From positions 20,719,292 through 20,783,291 of the forward strand of contig OZ316898.1 in assembly GCA_973895155.1 (NCBI GenBank): a DNA stretch of 64,000 bases, read 5' to 3'. Made by a program: the position numbers and the translations under genes. Under the pieces are notes generated by a model that ran no database searches, was not told where the DNA came from, and saw only the letters and a list, made by a program, of their open reading frames with translations. How positions within the stretch are numbered: the stretch's first letter is position 1; every line of letters starts with the position of its first letter. This DNA is from Marsupella aquatica. Lineage: Eukaryota; Plantae; Marchantiophyta. Shown in pieces: positions 7,888 to 64,000 of the stretch.

Positions 7888-8386
7888 CAGCTTTTTATTA
7901 ACCTGTCCCCAAAACTACCTTATATTACTAAAGTGCCCCCAAAACTAAATTAATTGTTAACCTGTCCCCCATTTTCTATCCAGTTTTATATTGCGGTCAG
8001 TATTAACTCGTATACTGGTTCTTGTTGCCATGTGACAGCTCACTATTGGCAAGCCTTGACCCACCACCACCACCTCAGCCCCTCTTCCCCTTCCCCATTG
8101 CCGGGCACAATTGCAGGTCTGGGAGGGGCAAACACCGTCATTTTTTGCTCCACACTCCCCTCACAAACCCAACACTTTTGGCCCTCATTTTTATTCAGGA
8201 AAATACAATAGATGAGGGGGGTGGCAGCAGATTAAGGCTAGCCAATACTAACTTGTCACATGGCAAGAGGAACCCATATACGAGTTAATACTGACCCAAG
8301 TAAAAAATGGGGGTCAGGTTCGTAATTAATTTTGTTTGAATGTTAGTAATATTGGGTACTTTGGGGGACAGGTTAGTAAAAAGTTG
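7888..8386. mobile_element. MITE with long (~170 bp) degenerate terminal inverted repeats (Mutator-like/foldback)
   Basis: Left cagctttttattaacctgtccccaaaactacc...ggtcagtattaactcgtata...ttgccatgtgaca pairs with right tgtcacatggcaa...tatacgagttaatactgacc...ggggacaggttagtaaaaagttg; no clean TSD seen. Confidence 0.7.
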
Positions 8387-9242: not shown

Positions 9243-9586
9243 TGTTAGATATTGCTCTAGTCTTGTGACTCATGAGCTAACCACAATTAGTCTAACTCGG
9301 GTTAGGACTTAGCTAATGTTAGCGGTAGTGTTGTTGTGTATTAAGCCAGGGCTGATGCCAGACTCTAGTGGAACTTAGGCTCATTGTTACGGAGCTAGTT
9401 GAGAGATAGGGAGAGCTTGTGCTGTGGATGCTTGGTATGGTCGGTCGGCCTAGAATGCAATAAAGCTCTTGTGTGTTCCCGTGGATGTAGCCTCATGTGG
9501 AGGTAAACCACATATCTCTTTGTGTTGACTCTTGTGCATTGGATGGTTCATGGGCTTGCAATTGCGAATGTCGTCTATGCTCAACA
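9243..9586 (+). mobile_element. Solo LTR (344 bp, probably Ty1/copia-type)
   Basis: TGTT...AACA termini; perfect 5-bp TSD TAAGA (9238-9242 and 9587-9591); internal ccgtggatgtagcc...aaccacatatctct motif typical of plant copia LTRs; homologs at 40521-40864 and about 31700-32265. Confidence 0.85.
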
Positions 9587-10086: not shown

Positions 10087-10483
10087 TATACTACTTAGTT
10101 ATACAGTTATACCGGAGTATCTAATTTGCCAGGTTGTTTTCCACCAGCATTACGACTTTAAATTTGGAAGTTTGTCGTGCGCATACATATCGCTACACAA
10201 CATACATCGCTTGTCACATACATCCAGACATAGTCACATTGCCACATCACAAACACAAGAGAATGGAATACAAGTGGAACTCATGTCCACACATGTCCAA
10301 AACCCACAATTGCTCCCCTAGCTGGGAGTAAGGTCCCCTAACTCTAGCTAGCCATGAGTTCTACAAGGTTGATATACACCTTTTTAGGTGTGAAGATCAG
10401 GAGGCCGGGTGCAAGTGAACCCCATCGATCACCTACCTGCAATCCATATCTGCCAAGAGAACACAAATGATAACTAGTCGGCT

Positions 10484-10624
10484 TCACCGACACTGAGGAC
10501 ACAACCATGATCCACTAGGAATCACCTGCAATGGTGGTGTCAAACATGACATGTGCCATCCTCTAGAACACTTATCACAAATCAACATAGTAGCTGCTCC
10601 CTGAGCAGATCCACACAACATACA
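10484..10624 (-). other. PHD finger (C4HC3) at the C-terminus of the retrotransposon integrase
   Basis: CMLC-x11-CDKC-x4-H-x2-C-x14-CPQC with CLTPPL..IPSGSWLC signature, followed by the terminal TGA. Confidence 0.9.
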
Positions 10625-10829
10625 TTTCAAGCCAGCACGAACATGTGCCAAGCTTGGATCTACTGTACCATCAATGTTGGGAAGGTGACATGGTGCACAG
10701 TTGCGCACATGATCCTTCCAAACCATACCATCGCGTCCCTCCAACATCAGGACACCAGAAGGCAACACTTCACGCACACGTAAGATTGTCCGGCCTGCGG
10801 TCACATCAAGTGTCGTGGGTGCCGTCTAC

Positions 10830-11740
10830 TGCAAATAAATATAATCACTAGGATGAAATCGCCGAATGCTTGCACGGTAACCTCCTCCACGAATAGTGGC
10901 ATACCTCAAAGTATCACGATGTTGGGCAATGGCAAGGTTGTCGAAAGCCATGGGCATCACTCGCTGAAATACCCGTGCTCTCTCTGAACACACCTTGACC
11001 CAAACATCAGGATCATCCAAGTTCACAACTGATGCAGCATCACGACGAATAGCTGCTGGCAAATTTGGCTCTCTACCATAGAGCAAAAAGTAAGGTGAGA
11101 AGGATGCAAGTGATGCTTGCCGACTGAAACGGTAGCCCATAGCTAACCAAGGTAGCTGGAGATCTCAATCTCCCAGATGACCAACCTACAAGCCATACTT
11201 ACGCAATCCTCTCTTCACAGTTTGCACAACTCTCTCAGCTAATCCATCTGCCTCAGGATGATCACGAGAGGTAGTACGATGATCAATCAGAGCTTGTTCA
11301 CACAAACTCTCAAACTCTCCACGGAACTCAATTCCTTGATCAGTCAACACCTCAGCTGGTGCTCCAAAATGACTAAGTACACGATCCAAAAATGTAGCAG
11401 CAACTCCTCCACTGGCTTTATCTGGCAACGCCACTAGCTCAATCCACTTGGAGAAGTGCTCCACCATGACCAAAACATACCGATTATGACGTTGGGTAAG
11501 AGGTAATGGACCAGCAAAATCCAAACTCCAACGATATCCCAAACCCATGATCGGCAACGGGTGCAACTGGGAAGTGGGAGCATTAAATGATGCTCTCACT
11601 CTATCACATACCACACACTTAGCTATCAACTGCTGGACATGAGTGTGCATACCACGCCACCAATATTGTGTCTGCAGCAAGCTGTAAGTGCGCTTTACAC
11701 CAAAGTGACCCAACTCCTCGTGCGCATGTCGCACCAAATG
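10830..11740 (-). pseudogene. Integrase domain (HHCC zinc-binding + DDE core)
   Basis: HAHEELGHFG...CVVC; SLDFAGP / VLTDQG / LAERVVQTVK; FSPYFLLYGREP; interrupted by in-frame stops. Confidence 0.92.
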
Positions 11741-12144
11741 TACTCTCTATGATGGTTTTGGGACCACCAACACTCTACCATCATGCAGTACTCTCAAAAG
11801 ATGGTTTCCCTCCCATCGAAACCTCTTGGCTCTCTGTAGAACCCTGTCACATTCCTTGGCATCAACACTGCCAACAATAGAAACCTAAACCCTGAACCAC
11901 TGCGCAGATATTCTAACACTCTCACATCATTGTGAATATCTTGCTGTCCAGTAGTTACCTCACTAACATCCACATCTGAAGACTCATCATCCACTCCATC
12001 CAATGAGGTAGAGTCCACAGATCCACTGTATGCTGGCACCCAACAAAGAAAGGCAGATGCATGCCATCCTGGCACCATCTCCTTATCTGACTCATCATGC
12101 CATCTGGCTCCAGTCTCATCTTGCTGACTGGTACATGGATTGCG

Positions 12145-12510
12145 GCTTAATCCATCTGCATCCAAGTTCACTTTTCCAGGCCTATGCACCACCTGGAAAT
12201 CATACTCCTGTAACAACAATGCCCATCGTGCAAGCTTCCCTGTAAGCTTGTCAGACTCCATTAACCACTTAAGAGGCTGATGATCAGTGATCAAGGTGAC
12301 GGGGTTACCAAACAAGTAGCAACGAAAGTGTGCAACAGCCCACACTGCTGCCAAACACTCTCCCTCATAAGAGCTATACTTAGCCTCTGCTGAATTGTTT
12401 GATCTACTGGCATAAGCCACAACAAACAAATTCCCTCATCATCCTTCTGAGTTAGCACTGCTCCAAGTCCTACTCCACTCAAATCAGTGTGTAGCTGAAA
12501 TGGTCTGCCT
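12145..12510 (-). pseudogene. RNase H domain
   Basis: FQLHTD.SGVGLGAVL, VAYASR, YSSYEGECLAAVWAV, TDHQPL, ARWALLLQEYDF, DADGLSR; frameshift near 12430. Confidence 0.92.
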
Positions 12511-12622
12511 GAAATGGGTCTTCTCAAAATAGGGGATGATGCCAACCTTTGCTTCAACTCCTGAAAGGCATGCTCCTGGTCATCACCTCAAATCCATTCC
12601 TGATCCAACTTAGTGAGTATGG

Positions 12623-13576
12623 TCAAGGTTTAGCAAGCTGGCTAAATCCTTTAACATACTTCCTGTAGTAGCTCGCCAATCCCAAGAATGCACGAACTCT
12701 ACTCACATCAGTAGGACAAGGAATCTGTGTAATGGCCTCCACTTTAGTCTGCTGTACATCCAATCCCCCTGGGTATATAGTGTGGCCCAAATACTCAATC
12801 TGGTCTTGGAAGAACTTACACTTGCCAGGATGGAGCTTCAACCCATGTGCTCTCAATCTCTCCAACACAATCTGCAAGTGCTGCTGATGTTCTTCCACAG
12901 TAGAAGAATAGACCAAAATATCATCAATATAACATCTGACAAAATCCAAACCTGCAAGGATTCGATCCATGACTCTCTGGAACTCAGCTGGTGCATTCTT
13001 CAACCCAAATGGTAAGAATAACCACTGATACAAATGATCTTTGCCATAAGAATCAATCCCCCAGAATGCTGTCTTGGACCTATCAGCATGCCTAATTGGA
13101 AGCTGATGGTACCCTGCCCTCAGATCCAATGAACTGAAAACCTTTGCATGCCCCACAACATCAAAGATCTCCTCAGGTGTGGGCATGGCATATCGATCAG
13201 ATTTTGTCTGGCGATTAATAAGTCTGTAATCACCACACATGTGCCTATCTGTGTAATTGCCATGCACATCCTTCTTGGCTGGCATCACTGTGGCAGATGC
13301 ATACTCCCCATATGAAATCTCCACCAATCCAGCCTCCAACAAATCTTGAGTTTTGCTTTGAATTAGAGCTCTCTCCATGTCACTATAACGGTATGGTCTA
13401 CGAAAGATTGGCACATCACTAGCCAATTCAATCTGAATACCAGGGCCCTTCAGTGTCCCCAAATCCTTCATGCTGAATGCAAAACAATTCCAATAACTCT
13501 TCAGGAATCGGTGCATGCGACGTCTCTCCTCCCCTGTTAACTTAGGGCCAAGCTGTGGTTCCCAACTCTCCACCAA
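12623..13576 (-). pseudogene. Reverse transcriptase domain
   Basis: DYRLIN, FSSLDLRAGYHQ, KTAF, PFGLKNAPAEFQ, YIDD (12920-12931), KCKF, YLGH, FLGLASYYRKYV. Confidence 0.95.
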
Positions 13577-13807
13577 ATCCCTAATATCTCTTTGTAGGGT
13601 AGAAGAGATAGTCGATGATTGCTATTTAGCAGTAGATTGAGCAGTCTCTTTTTGCTCAACAATCTGTCCAGCCTTGGCCAATCCTGCCATAGGTCCATGG
13701 ACTGTCTGCTCGCCCCCAGCTGTGGTCAATACTGTCTCAGTGGACCGCAAGCTCACCAAGGGACAATCAGTAATTCCAGCAGAGCACATCCGCAACTGTT
13801 CAGCTAC

Positions 13808-14759
13808 TCCCAAGCTGATAATCCAAGTCAAACAATTCAGGTCCATTGCTTGACCAAGAACCTGGCGCCGCAAACCCTCTGACACAGAGGCAACTGCAAT
13901 GGTGCCAGTCAAAAATCCCATAGCACGCTCTCTCTCATCAGCAGTAGGCTCCACTAACTGCTGGAGAGCTGTGTCCCACACAAGTCCAGGGCCACCTCCT
14001 CTGAATGCATATGAAGCAGAGTGGCTGACAAGAGTGGGTAATGCACACGTGGGCGCCCAACTGCATTGACCACTGCCAATGGAGGTCTATCAGGTTGGGT
14101 CACACCCTATGCACGACACCCTGGATCCAAAATATCATCCACCACTAAGGCTGGTGAGCGTGAAATGATGTCAAATGCACGCTTCAGCACCTCACATGGG
14201 ATCAAATTGGTCCACCACAAGCGTGGACGATGTGCACGAGAACCCACATGTGCAGCATCCAATAACACAGCAGGTCCAATCCAAGACCTCACCTGGTGAA
14301 CACTGGCAACAATCCGACTACGATCATCACCTAACAATGGCACATTCTCCAAAATGTATGTTGGAGACTGTGTCTGATGTAGCTGGAGATGATGCAGCAC
14401 CCATAACATCTCCCAAAATAGTGCAGAGCGTGGATCATGAAGTCCATGCCCAACGCCAGCTCTAGATTGGCCTGATATGGCCAACCAGCAATCACCAAAT
14501 CAATGGGGCCAACACGATGCAGATGATCCGCCCCTAGCAATGAAATATCAGCAAGTAGTGCATGCTGATAACCACGAACAGCATCCACTAGCAGCAATTG
14601 TGGATATCTATACACCAACATAGCCACATGCCGCAATGAGACCCTCCGTGTTGTCTCATCTGTCTCCACATACAAATAACGACGCACAGGAATTCCTGCC
14701 TGAAGAACAGCAGCCAATCCAGTGCTAATCCCACCAAAAAGATCCAACAAACAAATACC
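13808..14759 (-). pseudogene. C5 cytosine DNA methyltransferase domain (DNMT3-like motif order) inside Pol, copy 1; inactivated
   Basis: Motif I LLDLFGGI, II YLYVETD, IV IDLVIAGWP(Y)Q, V GLHDPRSALFWE, VI YILENV, VIII AHRPRLWWTN, IX ERERAMGF, X RRQVLGQAM. Catalytic Cys codon is TAT (14475-14477), with 1-bp deletions near 14470 and 14047 and a TAG at 14107. Confidence 0.9.
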
Positions 14760-15149
14760 CTCCGGTGGATATTGCCAAGCAATAGGAGTGGTATCCAATG
14801 GCGAAAGAGTCACAGGTCCATCTGCAAGAGACTGCTCTGCTCCTGACTGTGGTGTAAAAGCATGACGCCATGCATCATGTACCAATCGTGCTGCTGCCTG
14901 TGGCAAGGCCTGTGCAGTGCCCCACACTGGTGGCACAACACTGCCAACAGGTAATCCTCGCATGATGTGCTCCTCATGAGACTCCTCCAATGGTGGAACT
15001 TTGGCTGCATGTGCATTACCCTCAATCAAATCATCAGGTCCAGCAATTACACCACTGAATGCTGCCAAAGACAATGGTGTGGATTTAGGGCCTCCCATAG
15101 GTCCACTAAATCTCACTGGCAATTTGCTCAATCGAGCATCTCCTGACTG

Positions 15150-15520
15150 TCAATCAGGTCTATATGACACTGATTCCTCCCAAAAATCTAAAATAAATCC
15201 CATGGGGTAGAGCACTATACATCCCACCAACACATCATATGACTCTGCCTTAGTCAGAATAGCTCGCGCCTGTATCTGTGAGCTATCTGTGGTATGACCT
15301 TCCTGAATCCTCAAATCAAGAGGTCTCCTGGTAATGTGTTGTGTAGGTGTAGGTCCCCCCAATGAAGTCTGAAAGGGACAATCCTCCAAATCCTCTGGAC
15401 GCAATCCCAATCCATGTATGGCAGACTTCCCCAACATCAAGGGCTGAGCACCAGTATCCAGTAACACTCTCTCTGGCTGGTATACTGCTCTAGAAGGCCC
15501 AACTAATCGGAAGATACCAC
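15150..15520 (-). pseudogene. Retroviral-type aspartic protease domain
   Basis: VLLDTGAQPLML (DTG at 15450-15458) ... YDVLVG. Confidence 0.85.
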
Positions 15521-16382
15521 TCCGATTATCCAATGACACAACACTAGGTTTAAACCTAGTCCTCTCAAATGCAGGGCGTGCTGGTAAATCCACCAACCTC
15601 GTTGCTGCTGCATGCCATGTCTCACTAGTAGCAGTAGGTGGTATGGTCTTCACTGCTTCAACACTGCAAGTTGCTTCTGCATGGGAAGCAACAACTGGAG
15701 TGTCCTCACAGAGTGTAGCTGCCAATCTGAACACTTCTACAGGACCAACTCCCAAGTTCAGCATGTCTGTTGCTGAAAATAATGGGGTGCGTACTATGGC
15801 AGTAACCACCCCCAGCAGGGTACCTGTCATCCCTACTGTATCACTACCGGATTCTGCCAACTTACCCACACGAGGGTTTATCCAAACCGGGTTCATAGAG
15901 GCAGTCTGAACTGTCTCTGACAATGTAAAAGACTGAGGAAGCTTTGTTTGCCGACGTGCATCCCCCCTCTGTGGATCTAGCTCCACTACTGCTCCTCGGG
16001 GCTCAAGAGCTTTGGCTGCCCCACGTGTCAAAGCTGTTGATGCATCAATATGTGCAGTGCCACACATGAATCCCATGGTGGCAAGATCTCCATCAGCTCC
16101 ATAAGATGTGGAAGGACCATGGGATGTGGAAGGTCCATAGGATGTAGATGCCCCATCACCAGAAGTAGGTCTCACCTGGGAACTAGCCATGGCAGCTAGC
16201 TGTTGCTCCAATTGAGCAATCTTAGCATCCTTGGGATATATGGTTACAGTAGGGGCAACGTCACCTCCCTGTCTCCCTGCATGTGGCATGCCACGACCAC
16301 GTCCATCGCCTCTACCTCCTCCTCCTCTTCCTTGATCATGTGTACGGGATCCTCCTCTCCGTAACTCAAGATGGAGTGAGAA

Positions 16383-17595
16383 ACACCTATCCTTGGTGTG
16401 TCCAGGAGCTCCACAGTGATCACACTGTCGCTGATCAGGCGCTGATGCTCCCCCTGATCCTCTATGATCTGGGCAATATCTCTATGCATGATCCCCACCA
16501 CAGGTCCAACATCCTGACTGCTGTCCAGCATAAGAGGGCACAGGTCTCTGGCTGGTAGACTCTCGTGCAATAGGCTTCTCCCTTTGGCTTTTCCGTGCAG
16601 TAGGCTGTGGTGTGGATGTGGATGCAGCCTTTGGTGCTTCCTTGGCAAATCCGGAAGTCACCACCTTCTCATTCACCATATTGAGCTCAATGCGCTCAGA
16701 AAGTGTAAAAACAACTGCTAATGTGGGATCTGCATCCCCAAGCAGAGTGACATCTCTCACTCTACGTCGCAATTCTCTGTCTAGAATTGCATACCAAAAC
16801 TGGACTGCCTGAGCCTCTGTCACTCCCTTGGTGACAGTGATCAATCTGCGCATACGAGTGTATGCCTCACATAGACTCTCTCCAGTCTTGCGCTGGAACT
16901 CCTACAGACCCTTCAACTTATCAGTTCTTACACCCTGATAGTTCTGCTTCAGTACCTCAAAGAATTCCACCACAGGATTAAATGTTGGCGCAACTCCAGT
17001 TCCTGTCACAATCACACCGGCAGGAGTAGCGGTGGATGCTGCTGGAGTGCTGCTGGTGGATGGTGTGCCACTCTGGCTAGTGCTGCTAGAAGAAGCAGCA
17101 GTTGTGGCAATGGGTTGGGCAGCCGCACTAGTGCCATAGGTGATGGACACGTAATTAGGTGACCAATGCTGCCTCCATGCCTCAATCTCAACCAAATGAG
17201 CCTTCCGAAACTCATGGTAGTCATCCATGGGTGGCCCCTCTAAATGCTGAAATAATCTCTTCCATGCCATGAAAGGGGTAAACAATGTGGCGTTACGCAA
17301 TGTCTGCATATCGCACCACATATCAAACTCCTGGATGAAGTCATCCAGATCAATCGTGCCAACTGCACCAGAGTATCATCGTGGGCCCTTTGTAGCCCCG
17401 TACATCTCGTCCATATCCCACAACAAAGGTGCAACCACCTGATGATGAGGAGATGGTCACTGAGTCCTCATCAAAATCATTGTCTGAAGCTGCACTGCTG
17501 ATTGCTACCAATGCCGCTGGCCGAAACTGCGTCCCACTCCGAGTGAAACCGGTCCGTCGTCCATCGGGTAACCCAGCAGCACCAGAAGAATCCAT
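16383..17595 (-). pseudogene. Gag with two zinc knuckles (copy 1)
   Basis: Probable ATG at 17595; FQRKTGESL capsid-like motif; knuckles CWTCGGDHAxRxC and CDHCGAPGHTKDRC (16383-16511), followed by an RGG-rich tract. Confidence 0.85.
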
Positions 17596-17931
17596 GGTGA
17601 CCAACCCTAACCTAATCTATGTGCTAACCCTAAGGGCAATCTGTCCCTATCAGCACCACAAGCACTCACCATGGTGTGTTGGACATCACTCCAACATCAC
17701 CAGGAGAGAAATACACAGCACACTAGAATATCCGGTTGCAAACCCGGATCACTCCTATGGAATCAAGCGCCCATACCGAACCAACATGGCGCATAAACAA
17801 AAAACAAGTGTGGAGAGGATCCAATCAACAAGAATAGTCAAACACTAACTCTCCACACCAAGAGTGATCACACATTGATCAAACAAATATTCATAATGTT
17901 CAATGAAAGGCCTTCATAATAGGCTTCATGA

Positions 17932-19209
17932 TGTCACAATGTTATAGATGAGAAACCATGCAGAATTGGTTCAATCTGTGTATTTAGATGAACTCAGAGC
18001 TATCAAAAACCTCTAAAGAGCCTCTGATTTGGCCCGAAACAAGGCTCTAAGCAAACCAGAAAGTGTATAAAGCCCCTTGGCGTTTGAATCTAAACAACAA
18101 GTTGTGAAAACTTGTGTGTACACAAGGTGGGATGAGAACTTGCCAGTTAAGCGCTTGCGGCTGGGAATAGCCCCGGGATGGGTGACCTCCTCACGCTCGA
18201 TCTCGTGCTTCCCCTCGCGCTCGACCTCGTGCTTCCCCTCGCGCTTATGACCTGGAATAGCCCCAGGATGGATGACCTCGACCTCGCGCCTGCTTGTGCT
18301 CGCGATGGGTGACTTTGCGCTCGCGGTTGGGAGCACTTTCGGGATGGGTGACCTCACGCGTCACCTTATGCGCGCACAGTTATGTGTGTACACAAAACAG
18401 AAGTCGTCGGGCTCAGAAATGGCAACATTTGTCACTCGAAAGCAGTAATTTCCTTCACAAAAACGGCAACGTCGATGGCTCTCGACCTCTGCAAACCTGT
18501 CGCGCACGGTTCTGGGACATTTTGTGAGCGTCCCTTGACAATAAAACACTGCGAGCACTCAAAATTCCAACAGATCTGTCCACAAAACAGCAGTGCGATA
18601 CAAGCAGCAACCTTCGACCATCTCTTTCCAGATCCAGATCTAGACTCCGACTCAATCCAGATCCAGATCTAGACCAGATCCAGATCCAACAACGTTCAAG
18701 CTTGGCCAGAACCAGATCGAATAGCAACAGAGTACTCAAACAATAGAACCAATGATTCAAGAAACATGAATCCGCGTCAAACACAAATCCAATTGATTCG
18801 AGCTACCACGAACCGTCACCGTCAACAACAAACTCAGACTGAGCTTCTGTCTGCACAACAGAGTTTGAAGTTCATGATCTTTCAATGTAATCTCCATACA
18901 ATCGGCACAACGATCCCGGTCAACAATACCCCATCGATCCCGCACCGATCCGATCACACACGTATGTCAAGCCAACGCACCTTGCACTACTCAAGGAATC
19001 CACGTTACACAGCTCACAGCCACCATAGCCACTCAAGCTCCTCTCTCTCCAAGGCTCAACATTGAAAGATGACCTTTCAATGCCTCACAAGTGAGAAGTA
19101 CCCTCTCACACAAACCTGACGGAACCTTATCGGCTCCAATAGCACTCATACCAAACGTACATACTCTAATAACACGATATACTACTACACTACTCAGAAT
19201 GGTGTGACA
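17932..19209 (-). repeat. Putative 5' LTR of copy 1 (~1278 bp)
   Basis: Perfect 7-bp inverted termini TGTCACA...TGTGACA; homologous to 58445-59694. The inner boundary rests on the inverted terminus only, because no paired LTR is in the window. Confidence 0.55.
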
Positions 19210-20699
19210 AGTTGTTTCATGTGGGCTCCCCTTCAGACATACCCCAGCTTGCAGAGGACTCCTATGTTTGCCTTAAAGCACCACTAGTAATGAGGTGCTT
19301 TTGGGTTTTGGGAACTTCTGTGCTTGCCTTAAAGGGCCATTGTCCATGATAAAACCTGGACACACCACATTTAGCCATTTTCAAAAAAACTTTGCTGAAA
19401 TTGTGGAGCAAAGTCTCACCCTAGAAATGTGAAAAGTGAGAAGTATTAGACACTTGACTACACTCTTTACAGTATTTAGTCTCACACACTCTAATTATTG
19501 TGAGGTTATATTTGAGGTAAGTGATGATAATTAGGGTGTGTAACACTAATATAGTATGACACTAATTGTGGTCACAAGTCAAATAGTGTCACACACATTT
19601 AAAGTCTTAAACTAAGAAATGTGCACAATATTTGATTACAATTTACAAATTTTACTATTCAAACATTGAGAAACTTCAGAAACTTATAACTCTTTCCATA
19701 TACAACTCAAACATTGAGCAAACTTCAGAAATTTATAACGCCTCACATTTGCAGTTTGGGGTACTTGAACCACATTGAGCAAACAAGATCATTTTGATTC
19801 ACTTTGATTAACTATATATAGCACATGTTGTCTCACATTAGCTACAAACTAACATTATTTTCAATCTCCTACAATCTGTCCCCTGTGTCTCATCCTTGCA
19901 AGACGGCGTACAACCCCAAGAGAAGAAAGTTGAGATGGCTCCTCACCTGGTTCACCAATATCAGGAGCCACTCGACTCCCTTAAAAATTCACTCGATACT
20001 TCGTTATGGTATTTTGAAGCTCAGGTGTAAGTTGATTTTCAGACAATAAACCATTGACATTTAGAGACAACCCGATGTTTATCATTGAATTTTGTGCATA
20101 AGACATGTCACGTTTGTCAACAGAACTGTTCACCTCAGTTACAGAGTCCCTTGCCAATGTCAAAAATCAATGTTTGCCCTCGTGTTTGCCTGGATATATC
20201 AATTTCCTAGATGTGTCACGTGTTCCAGTCCTCACATTTTTTGGGTTTTCATTTATCATTTTTTGAAATGCAGTGATGATAAGCCAAACAAGATGAAGAT
20301 TAATTGCCAGTGACATTTTGACATAGTCTTGATTCTCTTTCCCTTGTGCTAGCAAATCCAACTATGACGGCCAATCCATTCCCACCATGTTATAAATCTA
20401 TCAACCTCCTTTCACAAAGACTGACAAGGTAAAACACAAAGGAACTTTTTAAGAACATACATACAAAGAGATGTCCTTGGTAGTTTGGATAACTTTGGAG
20501 TGAGAGCACTTTAGGATAATAATATTGTCACCTCTAATTATCAATATTTTTTAATATATTAATTTATTTTCCAAAATTAAGGGTGATGGTAATAGTGTCA
20601 CTTGGAGTGTGTGGCACTAATTGTTTCCTGACATTAAATACTCTGCTACCCCTAATTAGATTCAGCGCGAATGACAATATAGAGGCTCATCCCTGCCCG

Positions 20700-21838: not shown

Positions 21839-24800
21839 CTAAATGTTAATGTTGCATTGTTGCAGGAATGAGTGGTCGTACTTTACGTACTTGGTCCAAT
21901 AAGGCTTGTACCGAGACATACCAATCTCCAGCCATGGTTTCATATTTCCATTGTAATGAATTACTGAAGCATGTTCAATATCCTTTTGTAAAACACCAGC
22001 GTTGTAACCCAACCCAAGAACATGCCACCGCTTGGGCAATGCGTAGGTCAAGTTATAGAAGGTTATCAAACCTGGAGGTAGAGTTCCTAACTTCCACAGT
22101 GTCCGATCCTCATTCTGTACAGTATCAGGACACAACAGGAACATGTCATGGATTAGAAACAATGTGAAGGAAAAATAAATAAAAACTTACTAATATGCCG
22201 AGGTAGCACTACTCATACCCGCTGGAGACCGCAAGGAGACCAGACAATTGCTCCCACCTGTCCCTTTGATGATTGTCAGGGCAGGACTATCTACTCAAAT
22301 ACATGAGACCAATGACTCACCAGACTCTGCCACTTGTGATAAATGCCGGTTATATCACGTTTCTTCCACTCCACCAAATCGAACAAGTTCATCCCATAAG
22401 CCCATCCGCAAGCCATGGGATCAAAGTTGTTGGCAATGTATGGATGAGAAAAGTTCAGGTATTTGTCAAAACGGTGGAAGCTGGGTCCACAAGTTTCAAC
22501 TGCACCATTTACATTTCCTTGGAGATCCACCTTCCACAAGTCACTCAAATCCCTTTGCACAACCACGTCGTCGTCCAAAAATACAATCTTCGCAAGCGTC
22601 GGGTACGTCTCCGGTAGATAAAAGCGGAGGTGATTCAACATCGACAGGTACTTCGGATTTCGGTATTTCAGATTCGAAGACACACTCGCCAAGTTTGCAC
22701 TGTTTCCAGCTTTGAAGTAGTACTCTTTCATTGAATCGGATTCGAGTTGATGAAGGACTGGACAGTACGAAGTGTTGAGCCATTTGAAGTCATCCACGTT
22801 TTGAACTTCTATGGTTGCCTCACCTGGTGGATTCGCAAGGAACCACATTTTCATGGCTCCGTAATTCATCTTGTCTGTGACCAAGTGAAACACTTGTTTT
22901 TCAGGCTCCTGCACGACCAGGACAATCAGATAACAAAACTGAGAATTTGGAAAGCAGTCGATACATGTTTTGAGGTGAGATGAAGTGAGGAGAGAACCCT
23001 CTCCTCTCCCTACTCACTAAAAAATCTAAAAACTAACACCACCTCAAGCTCAAGGCTGCCCGCCCGGCTTCGAATGGGAGCTGCCTTGCTTTGGAGGGTG
23101 CTGGCATCCTACCTTTCAAAGATCGGAGCGATGACCTCAATCCCTCTACTTTTTAGGCAACACCCCTTTTCAACTCGAAAGCCTCCCGCTCTCATGGTAA
23201 GGAGAAATTCTTCCCATGAGTTAATACGAACCTTTGCGTGGACGATTGTGGAATTGACGACGACTGCCGCTGCAAGAATATTGTCAGAGAAAAGAGCGTA
23301 GTGGTATAGGCTAGGATCCTCGAGCTTTGACGAAGGGAGAAAGTCGCGTTCATCCTCGGGCTGATTATGGTACTCGACGGTCAGCAACATGGAGAGGCAG
23401 TGCAGACCCTTGGGAATTGTCTTCGCTGCCAGTTGACTTAAAAACGTGCTCTGCTTTTTAAGCGTCCGCGCATTTTCTTCGGAAGATTGCAACATCGCCC
23501 GCAATTTCTTTACCATCATTGATTGGTCCCGATGCTGATCCCGTGCCTTCGTCAAAAGACGTCCCATCTGCTTTATCCTGTCCTTCGTGCTGATCCCACC
23601 AAACATGATGCCACGCGTTAGTCGGAGTAGCGACATAATTATTCCATAATTGACTGCATAAAACTCTACTACCGGTTTGGCTTCGCACTACTCAACTGGA
23701 ATTAACTCCAACAAATAAGATAGTACTCATGTGAGAAAAGGGATCCACTAGAGGTCTAGATGAAACCTGCTTGGCAACTCCGCATCCACATTCGCGTCTT
23801 CGAGGATTTTCTGGCTGTCTTTGATTTTCACCTTTAGGTCCCTCAGGAGGCGCGCGTTGTTGCTTGATTCGGCAATAGCCGCATAAGCTCTAGCCATGAT
23901 TAGTTGGTCTCTCATTATGCGGACCATAGAATCGGCATTTTCTACGTCCTCACGCTTCCAAATGCTGTATTTCCCGTCGACTCCTATGTCGATCTCCTTA
24001 GATTTTTTTATTGCCTCTATCTCCGCCTTCGAGTCTTCTTCAGGGTCCTGCCGGATCAGCTCTGTCAGCCTTTTCTCATGCCTACGATGCCTGAGTTGCT
24101 GCAGCAGCACAATCAATATGCATTTCAACATAACAGGAAAAACTAGAGTTTCTTGGGCATGTCTGGCACAAAAGACTTTACTCTGAGGTTATTTACACCG
24201 CACGCGTGTAGTCTCAGGCGGGAAACAGTCACTCTTGAGGCAAAAGACGGCCATACTAGAGGAATGTGCGAAGTACCTTTCTCAGTTGTCGAGCTGTAGC
24301 ATTTATCTCGGGGGTAGATCCACTGCTGGCTAATCCACTGCTGGCTAATCCACCCGTTGCTGAATCACGCAAAAGTATTGAATTATGCACCAGAAACCAA
24401 CATTTCTAACAGTCGCGATTGATAAACTCGGACATTTAAAAGCAGCCAGACATTTTCAAATGGCCACCTATCCAAGGAAGACAAGACAATTGACAAGGGC
24501 GACAACAAAGAATGATAAACAGGAGCACGTATTTGCCACTACCTTCGAGATGAGCCTTCGCTTCTTCGAAGGTGACTGTACGAAGGTCATCACCAGCCTC
24601 AGCCTGGTCCTGAACAACAGATTTTTTCTGACTATCAACCAAGGGTATTGTTTGCTTTACAACCTCAATTTTTGTTCGTTCCTGCTGGATCACGAATGTA
24701 AATCCTGACATGACGACAAAAGTGGAAATGCTCGCTAGAAGATGAAAACATTTCAATGACAAGAAAACGTGCAAAACGAACTAGGACGGTCTAAACCAGG

Positions 24801-39401: not shown

Positions 39402-40274
39402 TACACTGAGTTATCATAGAGCACTCGCAAGCAGGGTGTTCTTTCAAATCAATTCTTGAGGAGCTTGAGTCACCAAAATGGAATGAACATGTTTAATCAA
39501 ATATTTTCTGGTACTGTTCACCTTTTTGGTGTTAAGATGCTTAATGTCTATTCCTGCCATAAACTTCTAATGATTTAAATAAAGCATGAATATGTATAAA
39601 TTATATTTCAATCAAAGCTTAAGCTCTCCAAAGTGATTTTTTTCTTTGGTTTTGACAAGGTTCACCCAACAAAGAGATTGCCACATATTAGGCTCCTCTA
39701 CTTGTATTGTGTTAAAAAGAGTTGCAGCTGAAGGCCCTCTCAAGCCTCTTCCTCTACTGCTACAACATTCGAGGACTGTAAGCAAGACACACAACACCTT
39801 TACCTTTATCTACCACGAGCATTACATTCAAGCTGGTCTTGCTTACCGTCCTTCATGAGGTAGAGGTAGAGGAAGAGGCTCAAGACTGCCTTCAGCTGCA
39901 ACTTTGTTTAACACAATACAAGTAGAGGAGCTTAATATGTGGCAAGCACTTTGTTAGGTAAGTCATGTCAAATACAAACAAAAAAGAAAAGAAAATATAT
40001 TGAAGAGCTTAAGCTTTGGCTGAAATACAGTTTATAAATATTCAAGCTATGTATGCATATATTAAAAGTTGATGATAGGAAATTTAACACCAAAAAGGTG
40101 AATACAAAGAAAATATTTATCTCAATAAAAAGGTTAAAACTGTCCATTTTATTTTGATAGTGCTATTATTGAGAGCTTCAGTTTCTAAATTATTGCTACA
40201 TTCTACTTATGAGTGTTATCCTACTAACAACAGAGAATGATCCTCTTAAGAGTGCTCTATGATAACTGAGTGTA
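39402..40274. mobile_element. Foldback element / long inverted repeat (~370-bp arms) with TA-CACT...AGTG-TA ends
   Basis: Paired blocks: tacactgagttatcatagagcactc / gagtgctctatgataactgagtgta; ttcacctttttggtgttaa / ttaacaccaaaaaggtgaa; ctcctctacttgtattgtgttaaa / tttaacacaatacaagtagaggag; ttgcagctgaaggc / gccttcagctgcaa. Confidence 0.8.
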
Positions 40275-58444: not shown

Positions 58445-61400
58445 TGTCACACCATTCTGAGTAGTGTAGTAGTATATCGTGCTATTAGAGTATGTACGTT
58501 TGGTATGAGTGCTATTGGAGCCGATAAGGTTCCGTCAGGTTTGTGTGAGAGGGTACTTCTCACTTGTGAGGCATTGAAAGGTCATCTTTCAATGTTGAGC
58601 CTTGGAGAGAGAGGAGCTTGAGTGGCTATGGTGGCTGTGAGCTCCGCTTGTGTAACGTGGATTCCTTGAGTAGTGCAAGGTGCGTTGGCTTGACATACGT
58701 GTGTGATCGCATCGGTGCGGGATCGATGGGGTATTGTTGACCGGGATCGTTGTGCCGATTGTCAGCTCATGATCATGAGCTTCAAACTCTATTGTGCGGA
58801 CAGAAGCTCAGTCTGAGTTTGTCGTTGACGATGACGGTTCGTGGTAGCTCGAATCAATTGGATTTGTGTTTGACGCGGATTCATGTTTCTTGAATCGTTG
58901 GTTCTATTGTTTGAGTACTCTGTTGCTATTCGATCTGGTTCTGGCCAAGCTTGAACGTTGTTGGATCTGGATCTGGTCTAGATCTGGATCTGGATTGAGT
59001 CAGAGTCTAGATCTGGATCTGGAAAGAGATGGCCCTAGGTTGCTGCTTGTATCGCACTGCTGTTTTGTGGACAGATCTGTTGGAATTTTGAGTGCTCGCA
59101 GCGTTTTATTGTCAAGGGACGCTCACAAAATGTCCCACAACCGTGCGCGACAGGTTTGTAGAGGTCGAGAGCCATCGACGTTGCCGTTTTTGTGAAGGAA
59201 ATCGTTGCTTTCGAGTGGAAAATGTTGTCATTTCTGAGCCCGACGACTTCTGTTTTGCGTACACACACAACTGTGCGCGCATAAGGCAACGCGTGAGGTC
59301 ACCCATCCCGAAAGTGCTCCCAACCACGAGCGCGAAGTCATCCATCGCGAGCGCAAGCAGGCACGAGGTCGAGGTCACCCATCCCGGGGCTATTCCGGGT
59401 CGTGAGCGCGAGGGGAAGCACGAGGTCGAGCACGAGGAGGTCACCCATCCCGGGGCTATTCCCAACCGCAAGCGCTTAACTGGCAAGTTCTCATCCCACC
59501 TTGTGTACACACAAGTTTTCACAACTTGTTGTTTAGATTCAAACGCCAGGGGGCTTTATACACTTTTCGGTTTGCTTAGAGCCTTGTTTCGGGCCAAATC
59601 ATAGGCTCTTTAGAGGTTTTTGATAGCTTTGAGTTCATCTAAATACACAGATTGAACCAATTCTGCATGGTTTCTCATCTATAACATTGGGACATCATGA
59701 AGCCTATTATGAAGGCCTTTCATTGAACATTATGAATAATTGTTTGATCAATGTGTGATCACTCTTGGTGTGGAAAGTTAGTGTTTGACTATTCTTGTTG
59801 ATTGGATCCTCTCCACACTTGTTTCTTGTTTATGCGCCATGTTGGTTCGGTATGGGCGCTTGATTCCATAGGAGTGGTCCGGGTTTGCAACCGGACATTC
59901 TAGTGTGCTGTGTATTTCTCTCCTGGTGATGTTGGAGTGATGTCCAACACACCATGGTGAGTGCTTGTGGTGCTGATAGGGACAGATTGCCCTTAGGATT
60001 AGCACATAGATTAGGTTAGGGTTGGTCACCACGGATTCTTCTGGTGCTGCTGGGTTACCCAATGGACGACGGACCGGTTTCACTCGAAGTGGGGTGCAAT
60101 TTCGGCCAGCGGCATTGGTAGCGGTCAGCAGTGCAGCTTCAAACAGTGATTCTAATGAGGACTCAGTGACCAGTTCTCCTCATCATCAGGTGGTTGCACC
60201 TTTGTTGTGGGATATGGACGAGATGTACGGGGCTACAAAGGGCCCACGACGATACTCTGGTGCAGTTGGCACGATTGATCTGGATGACTTCATCCAGGAG
60301 TTTGATACGTGGTGCGATATGCAGACATTGCGTAACGCCACATTGTTTACCCCTTTCATGGCATGGAAGGGATTATTTCAACATTTGGAGGGACCACCCA
60401 TGGATGACTACCATGAGTTTTGGAAGGCTCATTTGATTGAGATTGAGGCATGGAGGCAGCATTGGTCGCCTAATTACGTGTCCATCACCTATGGCACTAG
60501 TGCGGCTGCCCAACCCATTGCCACAGCTGCTGCTTCTTCTAGCAGCACTAGCCAGAGTGGCACACCATCCACCAGCAGCACCTCCAACAGCATCCACCGC
60601 TACTCCTGCCGGTGTGATTGTGACAGGAACTGGAGTTGCGCCAACATTTAATCCTGTGGTGGAATTCTTTGAGGTACTGAAGCAGAACTATCAGGGTGTA
60701 AGAACTGATAAGTTGAAGGGTCTTCAGGAGTTTCAACGCAAGACTGGAGAGAGTCTACGTGAGGCATACACTTGTATGCGCAGATTGATCACTGTCACCA
60801 AGGGAGTGACAGAGGCTCAAGCAGTCCAATTTTGGTATGCAATTCTGGACAGAGAATTGTGACGCAGAGTGAGAGATGTCACTCTGCTTAGGGATGCAGA
60901 TCCCACATTAGCAGTTGTTTTCACCCTTTCTGAGCGTATTGAGCTCAATATGGTGAATGAGAAGGTGGTGACTTCCGGATTTTCCAAGGAAGCACCAAAG
61001 GCTGCATCTACATCTACACCACAGCCTACTGCACGGAAGAGCCAGAGGGAGAAGCCTACTGCACGAGAGTCTACCAGCTAGAGACCTGTGCCCTCTTATG
61101 CTGGACAGCAGTCAGGATGTTGGACCTGTGGTGGGGATCATGCACAGAGAGATTGCCCAGATCATAGAGGATCAGGGGGAGCATCAGCACCTGATCAGCG
61201 ATAGTGTGATCATTGTGGAGCTCCTGGACACACCAAGGATAGGTGTTTCTCACTCCACCCTGAGTTACAGAGGGGAGGATCCCGTACACATGATCAGGGA
61301 AGAGGAGGAGGAGGAGGTAGAGGTGGTGGACGTGGTCGTGGCATGCCACATGCAGGGAGACAGGGAGGTGACGTTGCCCCTGCTGTAACCATAGATCCAA

Positions 61401-64000
61401 AGGATGCTAAGATTGCTCAATTGGAGCAACAGCTAGCTGCCATGGCTAGTTCCCAGGTGAGACCTACTTCTGGTGATGGGGCATCTACATCCTATGGACC
61501 TTCCACATCCCATGGTCCTTCCACATCTTATGGAGCTGATGGAGATCTTGCCACCATGGGATTCATGTGTGGCACTGCACATATTGATGCATCAGCAGCT
61601 TTGACACGTGGGGCAACCAAAGCTCTTGAGCCTCGAGGAGCAGTAGTGGAGCTAGATCCATAGAGGGGGGATGCACGTCAGCAGACAAAGCTTCCTCAGT
61701 CTTGTACATTGTCAGAGACAGTTCAGACTGCCTCTATGAACCCGGTTCGGACAAACCCTAGCGTGGGTAAGTTGGCAGAATCCGGTAGTGATACAATAGG
61801 GATGACAGGTACCCTGTTGGGGGTGGCTACTGCCATAGTACGCACCCCATTATTTTCTACAACAGACATGCTGAACTTGGGAGTTGGTCCTACAGAAGTG
61901 TTCAGATTGGCAGCTACACTCTGTGAGGACACTCCAATTGTTGCTTCCCATGCAGAAGCAGCTTGCAGTGTTGAAGCAGTGAAGACCATACCACCTACTG
62001 CTACTAGTGAGACACGGCATGCAGCAGCAGCGAGGTTGGTGGATTTACCAGCACGCCCTGCATTTGAGAGGACTAGGTTTAAACCTAGTGTTGTGTCATT
62101 GGATAATCGGAGTGGTATCTTCCGATTAGTTGGGCCTTCTGGAGTAGTATACCAGCCAAAGAGAGTGTTACTGGATACTGGTGCTCAGCCCTTGATGTTG
62201 GGGAAGTCTGCCATACGTGGATTGGGATTGCGTCCAGAGGATTTGGAGGATTGTCCCTTTCCCATTCAGACTTCATTGGGGGGACCTACACCTACACAGC
62301 ATATCACCAAGAGACCACTTGATTTGAGGATTCAGGAAGGTCATACCACAGATAGCTCACAGTTACAGGCGCGAGCTATTCTGACTAAGGCAGAGTCATA
62401 TGATGTGTTGGTGGGATGTACAGTGCTCTACCCCATGGGATTTATTCTTGATTTTTGGGAGGAATCAGTGTCATATAGACCTGATTGGCAGTCAAGAGAT
62501 GCTCGATTGAGAAAATTGCCAATGAGATTTAGTGGACCTATGGGAGGCCCTAAATCCACACCATTGTCTTTGGCAGCATTCAGTGGTGTAATTGCTGGAC
62601 CTAATGATTTGATTGAGGGTAATGTGCATGCAGCCGATGTTCCACCATTGGAGGAGTCTCATGAGGAGCACATCATGCGAGGATTACCTGTTGGCAGTGT
62701 TGTGCCACCAGTGTGGGGCACTGCACAGGCCTTGCCACAGGGAGCAGCACGATTGGTACATGATGCATGGCGTCATGTTTTTACACCACAGTCAGGAGCA
62801 GAGCAGTCTCTTGCAGATGGACCTGTGACTCTTTCACCATTGGATACCACTCCTATTGCTTGGCAATATCCACCGGAGGGTATTTGTTTGTTGGATCTTT
62901 TTGGTGGGATTAGCACTGGATTGGCTGCTGTTCTTCAGGCAGGAATTCATGTGCGTCGTTATTTGTATGTGGAGATAGATGAGACAGCACGGAGGGTCTC
63001 ATTGTGACATGTGGCTATGTTGGTGGATAGATATCCACAGTTGCTGCCAGTGGATGCTGTTCGTGGTTATCAGCATGCACTACCTGTTGATATTTCATTG
63101 CTGGGGGCGGATCATCTACATCGTGTTGGCCCCATTGATTTGGTGATTGCTGGTTGGCCATGTCAGGGCCAATCTAGAGCTGGCATTGGGCATGGACTTC
63201 ATGATCCACGCTCTGCATTGTTGTGGGAGATGTTATGGGTGCTGCGTCATCTCTAGCTACATCAGACACAGTCTCCAACATACATTTTGGAGAATGTGTC
63301 ATTGTTAGGTGATGATCGTAGTCGGATTGTTGCCAGTGTTCACCAGGTGAGGTCTTGGATTGGACCTGTTGTGTTATTGGATGCTGCACGTGTGGGTTCT
63401 CATGCACATCGTCCACGCTTGTGGTGGACTAATTTGATCCCATGTGGGGTGCTAAAGCGCGCATTTGACAACATTCCACGCTCACCAGCCTTAGTGGTGG
63501 ATGATATTTTGGATCCAGGGCGTCGTGCACAGGGTGTGACCCAACCTGATAGACCTCCATTGGCAATGGTCAATGCAGTTGGGTGCCCACGTTGTGCATT
63601 ACCCACTCTTGTAAGCCACTCTGCTTCATATGCATTCAGAGCAGGTGGCCCTGGACTTGTATGGGACACAGCTCTCCAGCAGTTAGTGGAGCCTACTGCT
63701 GATGAGAGAGAGTGTGCTATGGGATTTTTGACTGGCACCACTGTAGTTGCCTCTGTGTCAGAGGGTTTGCGGCGCCAGGTTCTTGGTCAAGCAATGGACC
63801 TGAATTGTTTGACTTGGATTATCAGCTTGGGAGTAGCTGAACAGTTGCGGATGCGCTCTACTGGAATTACTGATTATCCCTTGGTGAGCTTGCGGTCCAC
63901 TGAGACAGTATTGACCATAGCTGGGGGCGAGCAGACAGTCCATGGACCTATGGCAGGATTGGCCAAGGCTGGACAGATTGTTGAGCAGGAAGGGACTACT
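58445..64000 (+). mobile_element. Ty3/gypsy DNMT-carrying retrotransposon, copy 2 (5' LTR, Gag, PR, DNMT; runs off the window end)
   Basis: Highly similar (roughly mid-90% by eye) reverse complement of 13640-19209; starts TGTCACACC; putative LTR 58445-59694; zinc knuckles 61118-61246; DTG protease motif at 62174; same reading frame from about 60590 to 64000 with only nonsense substitutions. Confidence 0.93.
62879..63832 (+). pseudogene. C5 cytosine DNA methyltransferase domain inside Pol, copy 2 (catalytic PC intact; two premature stops)
   Basis: LLDLFGGI, YVEID, IDLVIAGWPCQGQSRAG (Cys TGT 63161-63163), YILENV, AHRPRLWWTN, ERECAMGF, RRQVLGQAM; stops at 63005 (TGA) and 63254 (TAG); frame open from 63257 to 64000. 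Confidence 0.92.

What the first reader, a model, noticed from the sequence alone, without database searches (positions are those of the whole stretch)
13808..14759. LTR retrotransposon carrying its own C5 DNA methyltransferase, fused in-frame between protease and reverse transcriptase
Seen: both copies contain the C5-MTase motifs in the linear order I (LDLFGGI), II (YVE.D), IV (GWPCQ), V, VI (ENV), VIII (HRPR..W.N), IX, X. In copy 2 they lie in the same frame as Gag and protease. In copy 1 the DNMT tail runs in frame into RT, with only a TAG at 13622. The domain is therefore part of Pol, not a nested host-gene fragment, and it has no introns. Knowledge: this non-permuted order is DNMT3/bacterial-like, not DRM (circularly permuted). 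Retrotransposon-borne DNMTs have been reported in dinoflagellates and charophyte algae (de Mendoza et al. 2018, recalled from memory); I know of no description in a land plant. Inference: the enzyme is released by the element protease, packaged in the particle and may methylate new cDNA or the integration site, i.e. a self-marking or host-mimicry system. The PCQ..S.AG...G..DPRS.L.E segment looks as much prokaryotic or viral as host-DNMT3-like, so its origin is open.
Basis: partly seen in the sequence, partly recalled or inferred. Interest (0 to 1): 0.95.

Follow-up and report, generated by a model that had tools for sequence, protein, structure and literature searches.

The report
Liverwort retrotransposon carrying its own DNMT3
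These are two broken copies of an abundant jumping gene, likely from a liverwort, whose family carries a DNMT3-like DNA-methylating domain so far described only in an alga; the domain is likely made in bulk with the capsid protein ahead of a leaky stop codon, likely marks the element's own new DNA, and the element's split end repeats suggest it would insert by cutting a junction inside a circular copy.

Summary
Both window copies are dead Ty3/Gypsy elements with a DNMT3-type C5 methyltransferase domain between protease and RT (PF00145 E=7e-9; DNMT3A is the best profile and fold match, far above DRM or bacterial enzymes). Domain order and split repeats match KnitGypsy-Dnmt3 of Klebsormidium (de Mendoza 2018). 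Close relatives occur in Marchantia, Calypogeia and Sphagnum; I found no paper describing them. Three refinements. (1) The TAG at 13622-13624 is not decay: 23 of 24 distinct close relatives keep a stop plus CAR there, and an intact relative has exactly two in-frame ORFs split by TAG-CAG-TTA. The domain ends ORF1 (Gag-PR-DNMT); RT-RH-INT-PHD likely comes by read-through. (2) There is no LTR pair: copy 1 is A-ORFs-B with a 4-bp target duplication, full relatives are A-ORFs-B-A-B. (3) A Tf1-like self-primer site abuts A and a PPT abuts B, so the true LTR is likely B-A with the integrase site inside it. The domain is under purifying selection between lineages (dN/dS 0.12-0.20). Activity and target are untested. 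This scan found the same family earlier on other DNA.

The parts
10173..19209 (-). Copy 1, whole insertion (9037 bp), form A-ORFs-B, ends TGTC...GACA
   Evidence: read joints at 10173, 10309, 18888 and 19210
19210..19213 (-). Target-site duplication, 5' copy (AACT on the element strand)
10169..10172 (-). Target-site duplication, 3' copy (AACT on the element strand)
18888..19209 (-). Repeat A (322 bp); inferred 3' part of U3 plus R and U5
   Evidence: boundaries from joints; A1/A2 pairs in L057, L075, L076, L087
19060..19070 (-). 11-nt stretch complementary to the primer site; predicted RNA 5' end and self-primer
   Evidence: 0 of 2000 shuffles of A reach 11 nt
18877..18887 (-). Predicted primer-binding site directly after A (no tRNA-type TGG start)
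13622..17595 (-). ORF1: Gag (zinc knuckle 16383-16424) - aspartic protease (LLDTG 15450-15464) - DNMT; broken by stops and frameshifts
   Evidence: colinear with Marchantia P0004
13808..14759 (-). DNMT3-type C5 methyltransferase domain, copy 1 (motif I 14730-14747, IV GWPYQ 14472-14486, VI 14341-14352, VIII 14221-14232, IX 13913-13936, X 13841-13855); broken
13616..13624 (-). Conserved stop and predicted read-through signal TAG CAA TCA (UAG-CAR-YYA), preceded by AAA
   Evidence: motif described in PMC3159437
10484..13621 (-). ORF2: RT (YIDD 12920-12931) - RNase H - integrase - PHD finger (10490-10624); broken
10310..10325 (-). Polypurine tract (AGGGGAG) directly before B
   Evidence: same position in relatives
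10173..10309 (-). Repeat B (137 bp), ending CACGACA; inferred 5' part of U3
58445..64000 (+). Copy 2, 95% identical to copy 1, starts TGTC, cut by the window end before RT; primer site altered
62882..63830 (+). DNMT3-type domain, copy 2 (GWPCQ 63152-63166); in-frame stops at 63005 and 63254

Best explanation
These are two dead copies of a multi-copy Ty3/Gypsy retrotransposon, likely from a liverwort, whose family has long carried a DNMT3-type methyltransferase domain at the end of its Gag-protease ORF, likely makes it at capsid-protein level ahead of a leaky stop, and likely uses it to methylate its own new DNA. Steps. Shown: domain order Gag-PR-DNMT | stop | RT-RH-INT-PHD; DNMT3 affinity; purifying selection between lineages; ends TGTC/GACA with 4-bp target duplication; forms A-ORFs-B-A-B and A-ORFs-B. 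Inferred: (1) RNA starts inside A1 and ends inside A2; (2) most ribosomes stop at UAG, giving Gag-PR-DNMT, and a minority read through to give RT-RH-INT-PHD, so the particle would hold many more DNMT than RT molecules; (3) the RNA's first 11-16 nt prime minus-strand synthesis as in Tf1, the PPT primes plus strand, and ordinary LTR-type copying gives a cDNA with LTR = B-nn-A at both ends; (4) integrase recognises the palindromic GACA-nn-TGTC junction inside that LTR: cutting one junction of a two-LTR circle gives A-ORFs-B-A-B, while a one-LTR circle, a double cut of linear cDNA or later B1xB2 recombination gives A-ORFs-B, the form of copy 1; (5) the DNMT methylates the cDNA, probably at CG, so that new copies arrive marked like host repeats, and the PHD finger would steer integrase to chromatin.
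For: DNMT3 type. Same domain order as Klebsormidium KFL_009030040, 46% identical over 260 aa. Conserved stop: 23 of 24 distinct close loci have TAG/TAA + CAR just before RT in RT's frame, the 24th has an insertion in the linker; L047 is intact with ORF1 1369 aa, TAG CAG TTA, ORF2 1047 aa in one frame; the frame is kept although the linker differs in length (about 70, 92 and 132 codons); named homologues end 55-143 aa after the domain, and Marchantia and Sphagnum gene models that join DNMT to RT skip the junction. Selection: dN/dS 0.12-0.20 for window copy 1 against 24 close loci, RT 0.05-0.10 where dS is defined. Retention: summed contig depth over DNMT bins equals that over RT and INT bins in all 4 runs laid. 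Repeats: A-ORFs-B-A-B complete in L057, L075, L076, L087; both internal junction types seen in contigs of the host-like run X1 and of X2. Exact 4-bp target duplication in 5 of 7 elements with both ends (3 short, 2 long). B starts right after the PPT and the A2|B2 junction joins A's end to that start within 0-1 nt. Self-primer: 11-16 nt in 5 of 6 cases, with three unrelated sequences covarying, at most 2 of 2000 shuffles as good; at least 10 nt in 18 of 25 loci with a complete A1, not deduplicated; in L075/L076/L087 it lies about 25-30 nt after a TATAAAA.
Against: No activity data: the isolated KnitGypsy-Dnmt3 domain did not methylate yeast DNA, which the authors call inconclusive (PMC5890265). 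20 of the 23 conserved stops come from one closely related set with CAA-CCC or CAA-CTC, which is not the strict CAR-YYA and is followed by an in-frame ATG; only 3 loci plus the window have the strict hexamer, so there are about three independent lineages. No conserved RNA structure follows the stop (alifold -4.5 kcal/mol). A sister clade (L074-L111) and the Klebsormidium and Closterium proteins have DNMT fused to RT without this stop, so bulk expression is not general. dS is near saturation (pS 0.66-0.74), and the two window copies differ at dN/dS 0.82. L076 has no target duplication and L087 a one-base mismatch. Copy 2 lacks the primer match. The substitution pattern between the copies (CG 0.147, CHG 0.123, CHH 0.029) fits ordinary host methylation and does not point to the element's enzyme. 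Integration from a circle junction was proposed for retroviruses and overturned (PMC11054761).
Confidence: 0.62

Rival explanations
1. Same element and expression, but the DNMT domain acts on something other than its own cDNA, or only binds: it methylates or occupies the integration site or host chromatin, or acts as a self-restraint that lowers the element's activity to the host's benefit.
For: Yeast test of the Klebsormidium domain was negative and the authors list binding, host-benefit and site-marking roles (PMC5890265). The PHD finger is most like CHD4, ATXR5, DPF3, KDM5B and PHF21A fingers, which by recall read unmodified H3 tails, as the ADD domain of animal DNMT3 does.
Against: Catalytic motifs (PC or EC, ENV, RxR) are kept across the family, and two dinoflagellate retrotransposon DNMT3 domains methylate CG de novo. 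A protein made with Gag would be packaged next to the cDNA (inference).
Confidence: 0.22
2. ORF2 is made by re-initiation, an internal promoter or splicing rather than by read-through; the stop is real but not leaky.
For: An in-frame ATG lies two codons after the stop in the Sphagnum-like set, and their hexamer is not the strict motif. In Candida Tca2 the junction alone did not direct read-through and held a minor promoter (PMC2194720).
Against: ORF2 stays in ORF1's frame across three linker lengths; the window, L047, L048 and L053 have the strict UAG-CAR-YYA and no ATG in the three codons after the stop.
Confidence: 0.12
3. The long form A-ORFs-B-A-B is copied directly as a linear DNA by template jumps between the split repeats, as proposed for split-repeat tyrosine-recombinase elements, and is integrated through its ends; the short form is only B1xB2 recombination.
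For: The repeat layout is that of DIRS-type elements (PMC5890265 Fig. 4c legend). All characterised retroviral integrases act on linear ends (PMC11054761). Recombination between B1 and B2 gives the short form with its target duplication intact.
Against: The only primer-like site found follows A1 and the PPT precedes B1, which predicts a B-A LTR; no primer site at the B|A junction was evident. The short form is about as common as the long (8 against 9 distinct loci) although B is only 113-176 bp.
Confidence: 0.3
4. The domain is a passenger: a host DNMT3 fragment captured once and carried without function.
For: Both window copies are broken and differ at dN/dS 0.82.
Against: dN/dS 0.12-0.20 between lineages, comparable in trend to RT at every divergence bin; congruent DNMT and RT trees from green algae to bryophytes; intact ORF in L047.
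Confidence: 0.03

Closest known systems
KnitGypsy-Dnmt3 of Klebsormidium nitens (de Mendoza et al. 2018, PMC5890265; read: main text parts 1-4 of 7, found passages, term search of 3 supplementary files; figures not visible)
   Same: Gypsy domains with an intronless, non-permuted Dnmt3; DIRS-like repeat layout (Fig. 4c legend); purifying selection. K. nitens KFL_009030040, which I take to be a member, has DNMT-RT-RH-INT order and is 46% identical over 260 aa.
   Different: Host is a land plant; the domain ends the Gag-PR ORF before a conserved stop instead of being fused to RT; the primer site, PPT, junction palindrome, target duplication and short form are not described in the text I read.
Tf1/Sushi group and plant Tcn1 chromoviruses (PMC6317226, PMC4600332; passages)
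   Same: Ty3/Gypsy order; primer site complementary to the RNA's own 5' end; Tj1 also has a stop after gag.
   Different: They have ordinary paired LTRs and a chromodomain, no methyltransferase; here a PHD finger follows integrase. Clade membership on RT was not tested (no reference rows).
SymbioDIRS-Dnmt3 (PMC5890265)
   Same: Dnmt3 in a retrotransposon polyprotein with A-ORFs-B-A-B repeats; shown to methylate CG in yeast.
   Different: Tyrosine recombinase instead of a DDE integrase; here TG...CA ends and 4-bp target duplications.
Tobamovirus-type read-through signal UAG-CAR-YYA (PMC3159437; passages)
   Same: Window context AAA-UAG-CAA-UCA fits the consensus, including the 5' adenines; no downstream structure needed.
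   Different: Here it sits after protease and DNMT in a retrotransposon; the Sphagnum-like set has CAA-CCC.
Animal DNMT3A/3B catalytic domain and host plant DNMT3
   Same: Best profile (90 bits) and fold match (TM 0.71/0.82).

Membership tests
KnitGypsy-Dnmt3-type retrotransposon | Gypsy domain order PR-RT-RH-INT | tested here: met
KnitGypsy-Dnmt3-type retrotransposon | Intronless, non-permuted Dnmt3-related domain in the element's coding region | tested here: met
KnitGypsy-Dnmt3-type retrotransposon | DIRS-like repeat layout A-coding-B-A-B | tested here: met
   Family form in L057, L075, L076, L087 and both junctions in runs X1 and X2; window copy 1 itself is the short A-ORFs-B form
KnitGypsy-Dnmt3-type retrotransposon | DNMT in the same uninterrupted ORF as RT (Pol) | tested here: not met
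   Conserved stop between DNMT and RT in this clade; fused in KFL_009030040. Hence a variant, not a plain member
KnitGypsy-Dnmt3-type retrotransposon | DNMT and RT group with the Klebsormidium element | tested here: met
   Same side of the main split in both trees (support 99 and 94), midpoint-rooted, no outside reference rows
KnitGypsy-Dnmt3-type retrotransposon | [quoted passage not shown] | tested here: met
   dN/dS 0.12-0.20 between lineages, dS near saturation
DNMT3 subfamily of C5 methyltransferases | Closer to DNMT3 than to DRM, DNMT1/2 or prokaryotic enzymes | tested here: met
   Profile bits 73-90 against 48-59 (DRM), 23-42 (bacterial, DNMT2); Foldseek top 50 ranks shown are all DNMT3. 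No tree with host DNMT3 was possible
DNMT3 subfamily of C5 methyltransferases | SAM-dependent de novo cytosine methylation | not testable with these tools
   needs an assay
Canonical LTR retrotransposon | Identical LTRs at both ends | tested here: not met
Canonical LTR retrotransposon | TG...CA ends, target duplication, PPT | tested here: met
DIRS/Ngaro tyrosine-recombinase elements | Tyrosine recombinase, no DDE integrase | tested here: not met
   rve and H2C2 integrase domains
Tf1/Sushi (Tcn1) self-primed chromoviruses | Primer site complementary to the RNA 5' end | tested here: met
   the RNA start itself is predicted, not mapped
Tf1/Sushi (Tcn1) self-primed chromoviruses | Chromodomain after integrase | tested here: not met
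   PHD finger instead
Tf1/Sushi (Tcn1) self-primed chromoviruses | RT falls in the Tcn1 or Tf1 clade | not tested
   no reference RT sequences were held
DRM (domains rearranged) | Circular permutation of motifs | tested here: not met
   linear order I-X

The most novel reading that the evidence does not exclude
An ancient green-lineage clade of self-primed Gypsy elements, alive until recently in liverworts and mosses including Marchantia, packs a stoichiometric de novo DNMT3 into its particle through a leaky stop, pre-methylates its cDNA, and integrates it by cutting a palindromic site in the middle of its own LTR on a circular intermediate: the circle-junction route once proposed and rejected for retroviruses.
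Probability: 0.35. Interest if true: 0.87.

Novelty: new variant of a known kind. Interest (0 to 1): 0.62.

Why it matters
The family is present in Marchantia polymorpha, a transformable model with methylation mutants, so the open question from 2018 (what a retrotransposon does with its own DNMT3) becomes directly testable in a land plant. A stop that leaves the methyltransferase on the Gag side means it would be made at capsid level, which argues for a job on the packaged nucleic acid. The permuted LTR with an internal TG/CA junction predicts a DDE integrase that works on a circle junction, unlike any characterised retroviral integrase. Practically, LTR finders that need paired terminal repeats will miss these elements, and at least a dozen Marchantia gene models with a PF00145 match are these elements, not host methyltransferases.

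Tried and rejected
No whole genome is held for this window, so intact copies and copy number in the host could not be counted; contig depth about 2,000-fold over unique flanks in run X1 shows a multi-copy family but is no copy number. A site-by-site check of the stop among the host's own copies was not obtained and stays open; 13622-13624 is absent from the 40 differences shown, but 932 rows were not shown. Sequencing runs: no RNA holder listed. IMG/VR scan: 31 loci of 133 candidates, all partial phage-type matches at 28-45% identity, none with the full domain; a viral or bacterial origin was rejected, although the Atlas lists two phage clusters at 0.96 just under a streptophyte cluster at 0.97. 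Conventional paired LTRs and a tRNA primer site: not found; no tRNA gene in the window. RNA structure after the stop: none conserved. CpG depletion (O/E 0.19-0.51 in coding parts against 0.45-0.60 in flanks) and the transition pattern were not used as evidence for the element's own enzyme. Two homologue searches aimed at host DNMT3 rows for an outgroup returned none. One search covered only proteins of 581-2000 aa, so it could not show fully fused polyproteins; the stop argument rests on DNA loci. Literature: searches; term look-ups in 10.1101/363937, PMC11982613, PMC9940879, PMC6317226, PMC6673714 and PMC11042837 gave no description of a DNMT-bearing or split-repeat Gypsy in a land plant.

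Full report
The observation. The window holds two copies of one element in opposite orientation, 95% identical over 5590 bp: copy 1 on the minus strand (19209 to 10173) and copy 2 on the plus strand from 58445 to the window end. Copy 1 reads Gag with a zinc knuckle, aspartic protease, a C5-methyltransferase domain, then RT, RNase H, integrase and a PHD finger. Copy 2's domain, read with X at its two stops, passes the PF00145 cut-off (36 bits, E=6.8e-9). Both copies are dead: copy 1 has GWPYQ at motif IV, two one-base gaps and a stop in the domain; copy 2 has stops at 63005 and 63254.

Host. No genome is held. A GT8 glycosyltransferase gene in the window is 88-97% identical to a Calypogeia fissa protein in 6 of 7 matched exons (68% in the seventh), against 47-77% for the rice protein. 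The strict cut-off showed only 4 proteins and no moss or hornwort, so 'liverwort' is likely, not shown.

What the domain is. Against solved structures the single sequence hits DNMT3A, 3B and 3C in 29 of 30 rows (best E=8e-10) and M.HaeIII last. A 25-sequence profile scores DNMT3A 90 bits, DRM 48-59 and M.HhaI 42. A model of the intact domain of locus L045, 68% identical to copy 2 (pLDDT 94), matches DNMT3A best (E=2e-18, TM 0.71/0.82), and all rows shown are DNMT3. Phage contigs give only partial matches of 28-45%. The Atlas ranks a streptophyte cluster first (0.97) and two phage clusters just behind (0.96), which does not discriminate. The domain is DNMT3-derived; no tree with host DNMT3 could be built.

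Distribution. 46 longer homologues include at least 15 Marchantia polymorpha models (up to 71% identical over the full domain), Calypogeia (70%), Sphagnum, Mesostigma and Closterium; the profile adds Klebsormidium KFL_009030040 and Chromochloris. 228 clusters at 50% identity reach E<=1e-30. Among 207 stored proteins with the domain, 105 have no RT, RH or integrase match, 63 have it after RNase H and 22 before RT or RNase H, and 17 show only DNMT-INT. A DNMT tree (105 chosen rows: named, RT-bearing or long proteins and 10 loci; FastTree, midpoint root) splits exactly by position, 52 against 53 rows; an RT tree of 68 rows needs one change of the same label, support 94. The window element sits in a 13-row clade (support 100) with Calypogeia, Sphagnum and Marchantia rows. 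The domain has travelled with the element for a long time. dN/dS of copy 1 against 24 close loci is 0.12-0.20 with dS near saturation; all-pair medians fall from 0.48 to 0.16-0.20 with divergence, as RT falls from 0.47 to 0.07-0.09; the two window copies differ at 0.82, as expected for decay after insertion. Contig depth over the domain equals that over RT and integrase in four runs.

The stop is native. The element strand reads AAA TAG CAA TCA at 13627-13616, the tobamovirus read-through consensus UAG-CAR-YYA with the favourable 5' adenines (PMC3159437, passages). Of 80 metagenome loci fetched (best 80 of 339 confirmed), 57 cover both the domain's end and RT's start. In the close group, 23 of 24 distinct loci have TAG (18) or TAA (5) plus CAR just before RT in its frame; the exception carries an insertion after the same stop. 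Nineteen read CAA-CCC, one CAA-CTC, two CAG-TTA and one CAA-TCA, so the set amounts to about three lineages with the window. L047 is fully intact: 1369 codons, TAG CAG TTA, 1047 codons, one frame. In the distant group 0 of 23 have this signal and 11 have no stop in the linker; the Klebsormidium and Closterium proteins are fused too. So in this clade the methyltransferase ends the Gag-PR ORF, and the replication enzymes likely come by read-through. Re-initiation at an ATG two codons after the stop is a rival for the Sphagnum-like set; Tca2 shows that such junctions can mislead (PMC2194720, passages).

The ends. Copy 1 has no LTR pair yet is a complete insertion: TGTC...GACA with AACT duplicated on both sides. 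Contigs of the host-like run X1 and of X2 join 18888 to 10309 and 10173 to 19210, and four loci show the whole layout A-ORFs-PPT-B-nn-A-B. Among loci with a complete B, 11 (9 distinct) are long and 10 (8 distinct) end after one B; 4 others are partial. Exact 4-bp duplications flank 5 of 7 elements with both ends. The B|A junction is GACA, two bases, TGTC. B begins right after the polypurine tract; directly after A1 lies a stretch complementary to 11-16 nt inside A, in three unrelated sequences, and in one family about 25-30 nt after a TATA box. That is the Tf1 self-priming arrangement (PMC4600332 and PMC6317226, passages). Primer site after A and PPT before B define an LTR of B-nn-A, whereas integrated copies end at the junction inside it. 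Cutting one junction of a two-LTR circle gives the long form; a one-LTR circle, a double cut or B1xB2 recombination gives the short form of copy 1. This is inference; the circle-junction model failed for retroviruses (PMC11054761, passages).

Comparison with print. De Mendoza et al. 2018 (PMC5890265; main text parts 1-4 of 7; passages; term search of three supplementary files) describe KnitGypsy-Dnmt3 with Gypsy domains and DIRS-like repeats, call it an acquisition in the K. nitens lineage, surveyed Selaginella and Physcomitrella but not Marchantia or Sphagnum, and saw no activity of its domain in yeast. Their figures and supplementary figures were not visible and may show termini. PMC12344493 (passages) repeats the finding for 'streptophytes and dinoflagellates'; its supplements, which I did not open, may hold land-plant rows. 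Ten searches found no land-plant description, read-through signal or internal integration site for this family; subscription journals and Repbase are outside the library. After reaching this reading I looked up the scan's notes: seven earlier unreviewed findings describe the same family on other DNA with much the same conclusions; they are not independent support.

Verdict. A new variant of a known kind. The captured DNMT3 is published for an alga; its spread into bryophytes, the read-through arrangement, self-priming and the permuted LTR are not, as far as I could find. Interest 0.62.

Noticed in passing
P0039, P0054, P0173 (Chromochloris) and others: A large sister clade carries the same DNMT between RNase H and integrase, some with an added G-patch or Tudor-like domain; it separates cleanly from the PR-DNMT-RT clade in both trees, implying one relocation or two captures.
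   Followed up: partly
L074-L111: A second family in the same metagenome set has DNMT fused to RT without the stop but the same split repeats and self-primer; one linker codon is CAG in 17 and TAG in 7 of 24 loci, probably a deamination hot spot.
   Followed up: partly
window 19060-19082 (minus); L057 repeat A: The predicted primer stretch is also one arm of a local hairpin with the sequence just upstream, which could mask the 3' copy of it in the RNA; not seen in the L075 family.
   Followed up: no
window 58755-58775: Copy 2 has 18 nt around the A end and primer site replaced by 8 nt that look like an inverted copy of neighbouring sequence.
   Followed up: partly
window 9370-9586 and 40655-40864: A second, very high-depth repeat (over 1 million summed depth in X1), about 220 bp, 75% alike between the two places; not identified.
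   Followed up: no
window 17716-18867: The 5' untranslated region has 10- to 50-fold lower contig depth than the coding region and short internal repeats, so subfamilies differ there.
   Followed up: no
window 21845-26905 (minus): Host GT8/GAUT glycosyltransferase gene, closest to Calypogeia fissa among four proteins compared.
   Followed up: partly
window 44829-46175 (minus) and from 51842 (plus): Host F-box/LRR gene and an exon that by recall resembles the N-terminus of a SYP7 syntaxin (no Pfam hit).
   Followed up: no
window 39583-40048 and 7984-8307: Inverted repeats of 61-131 nt with short spacers, MITE-like.
   Followed up: no
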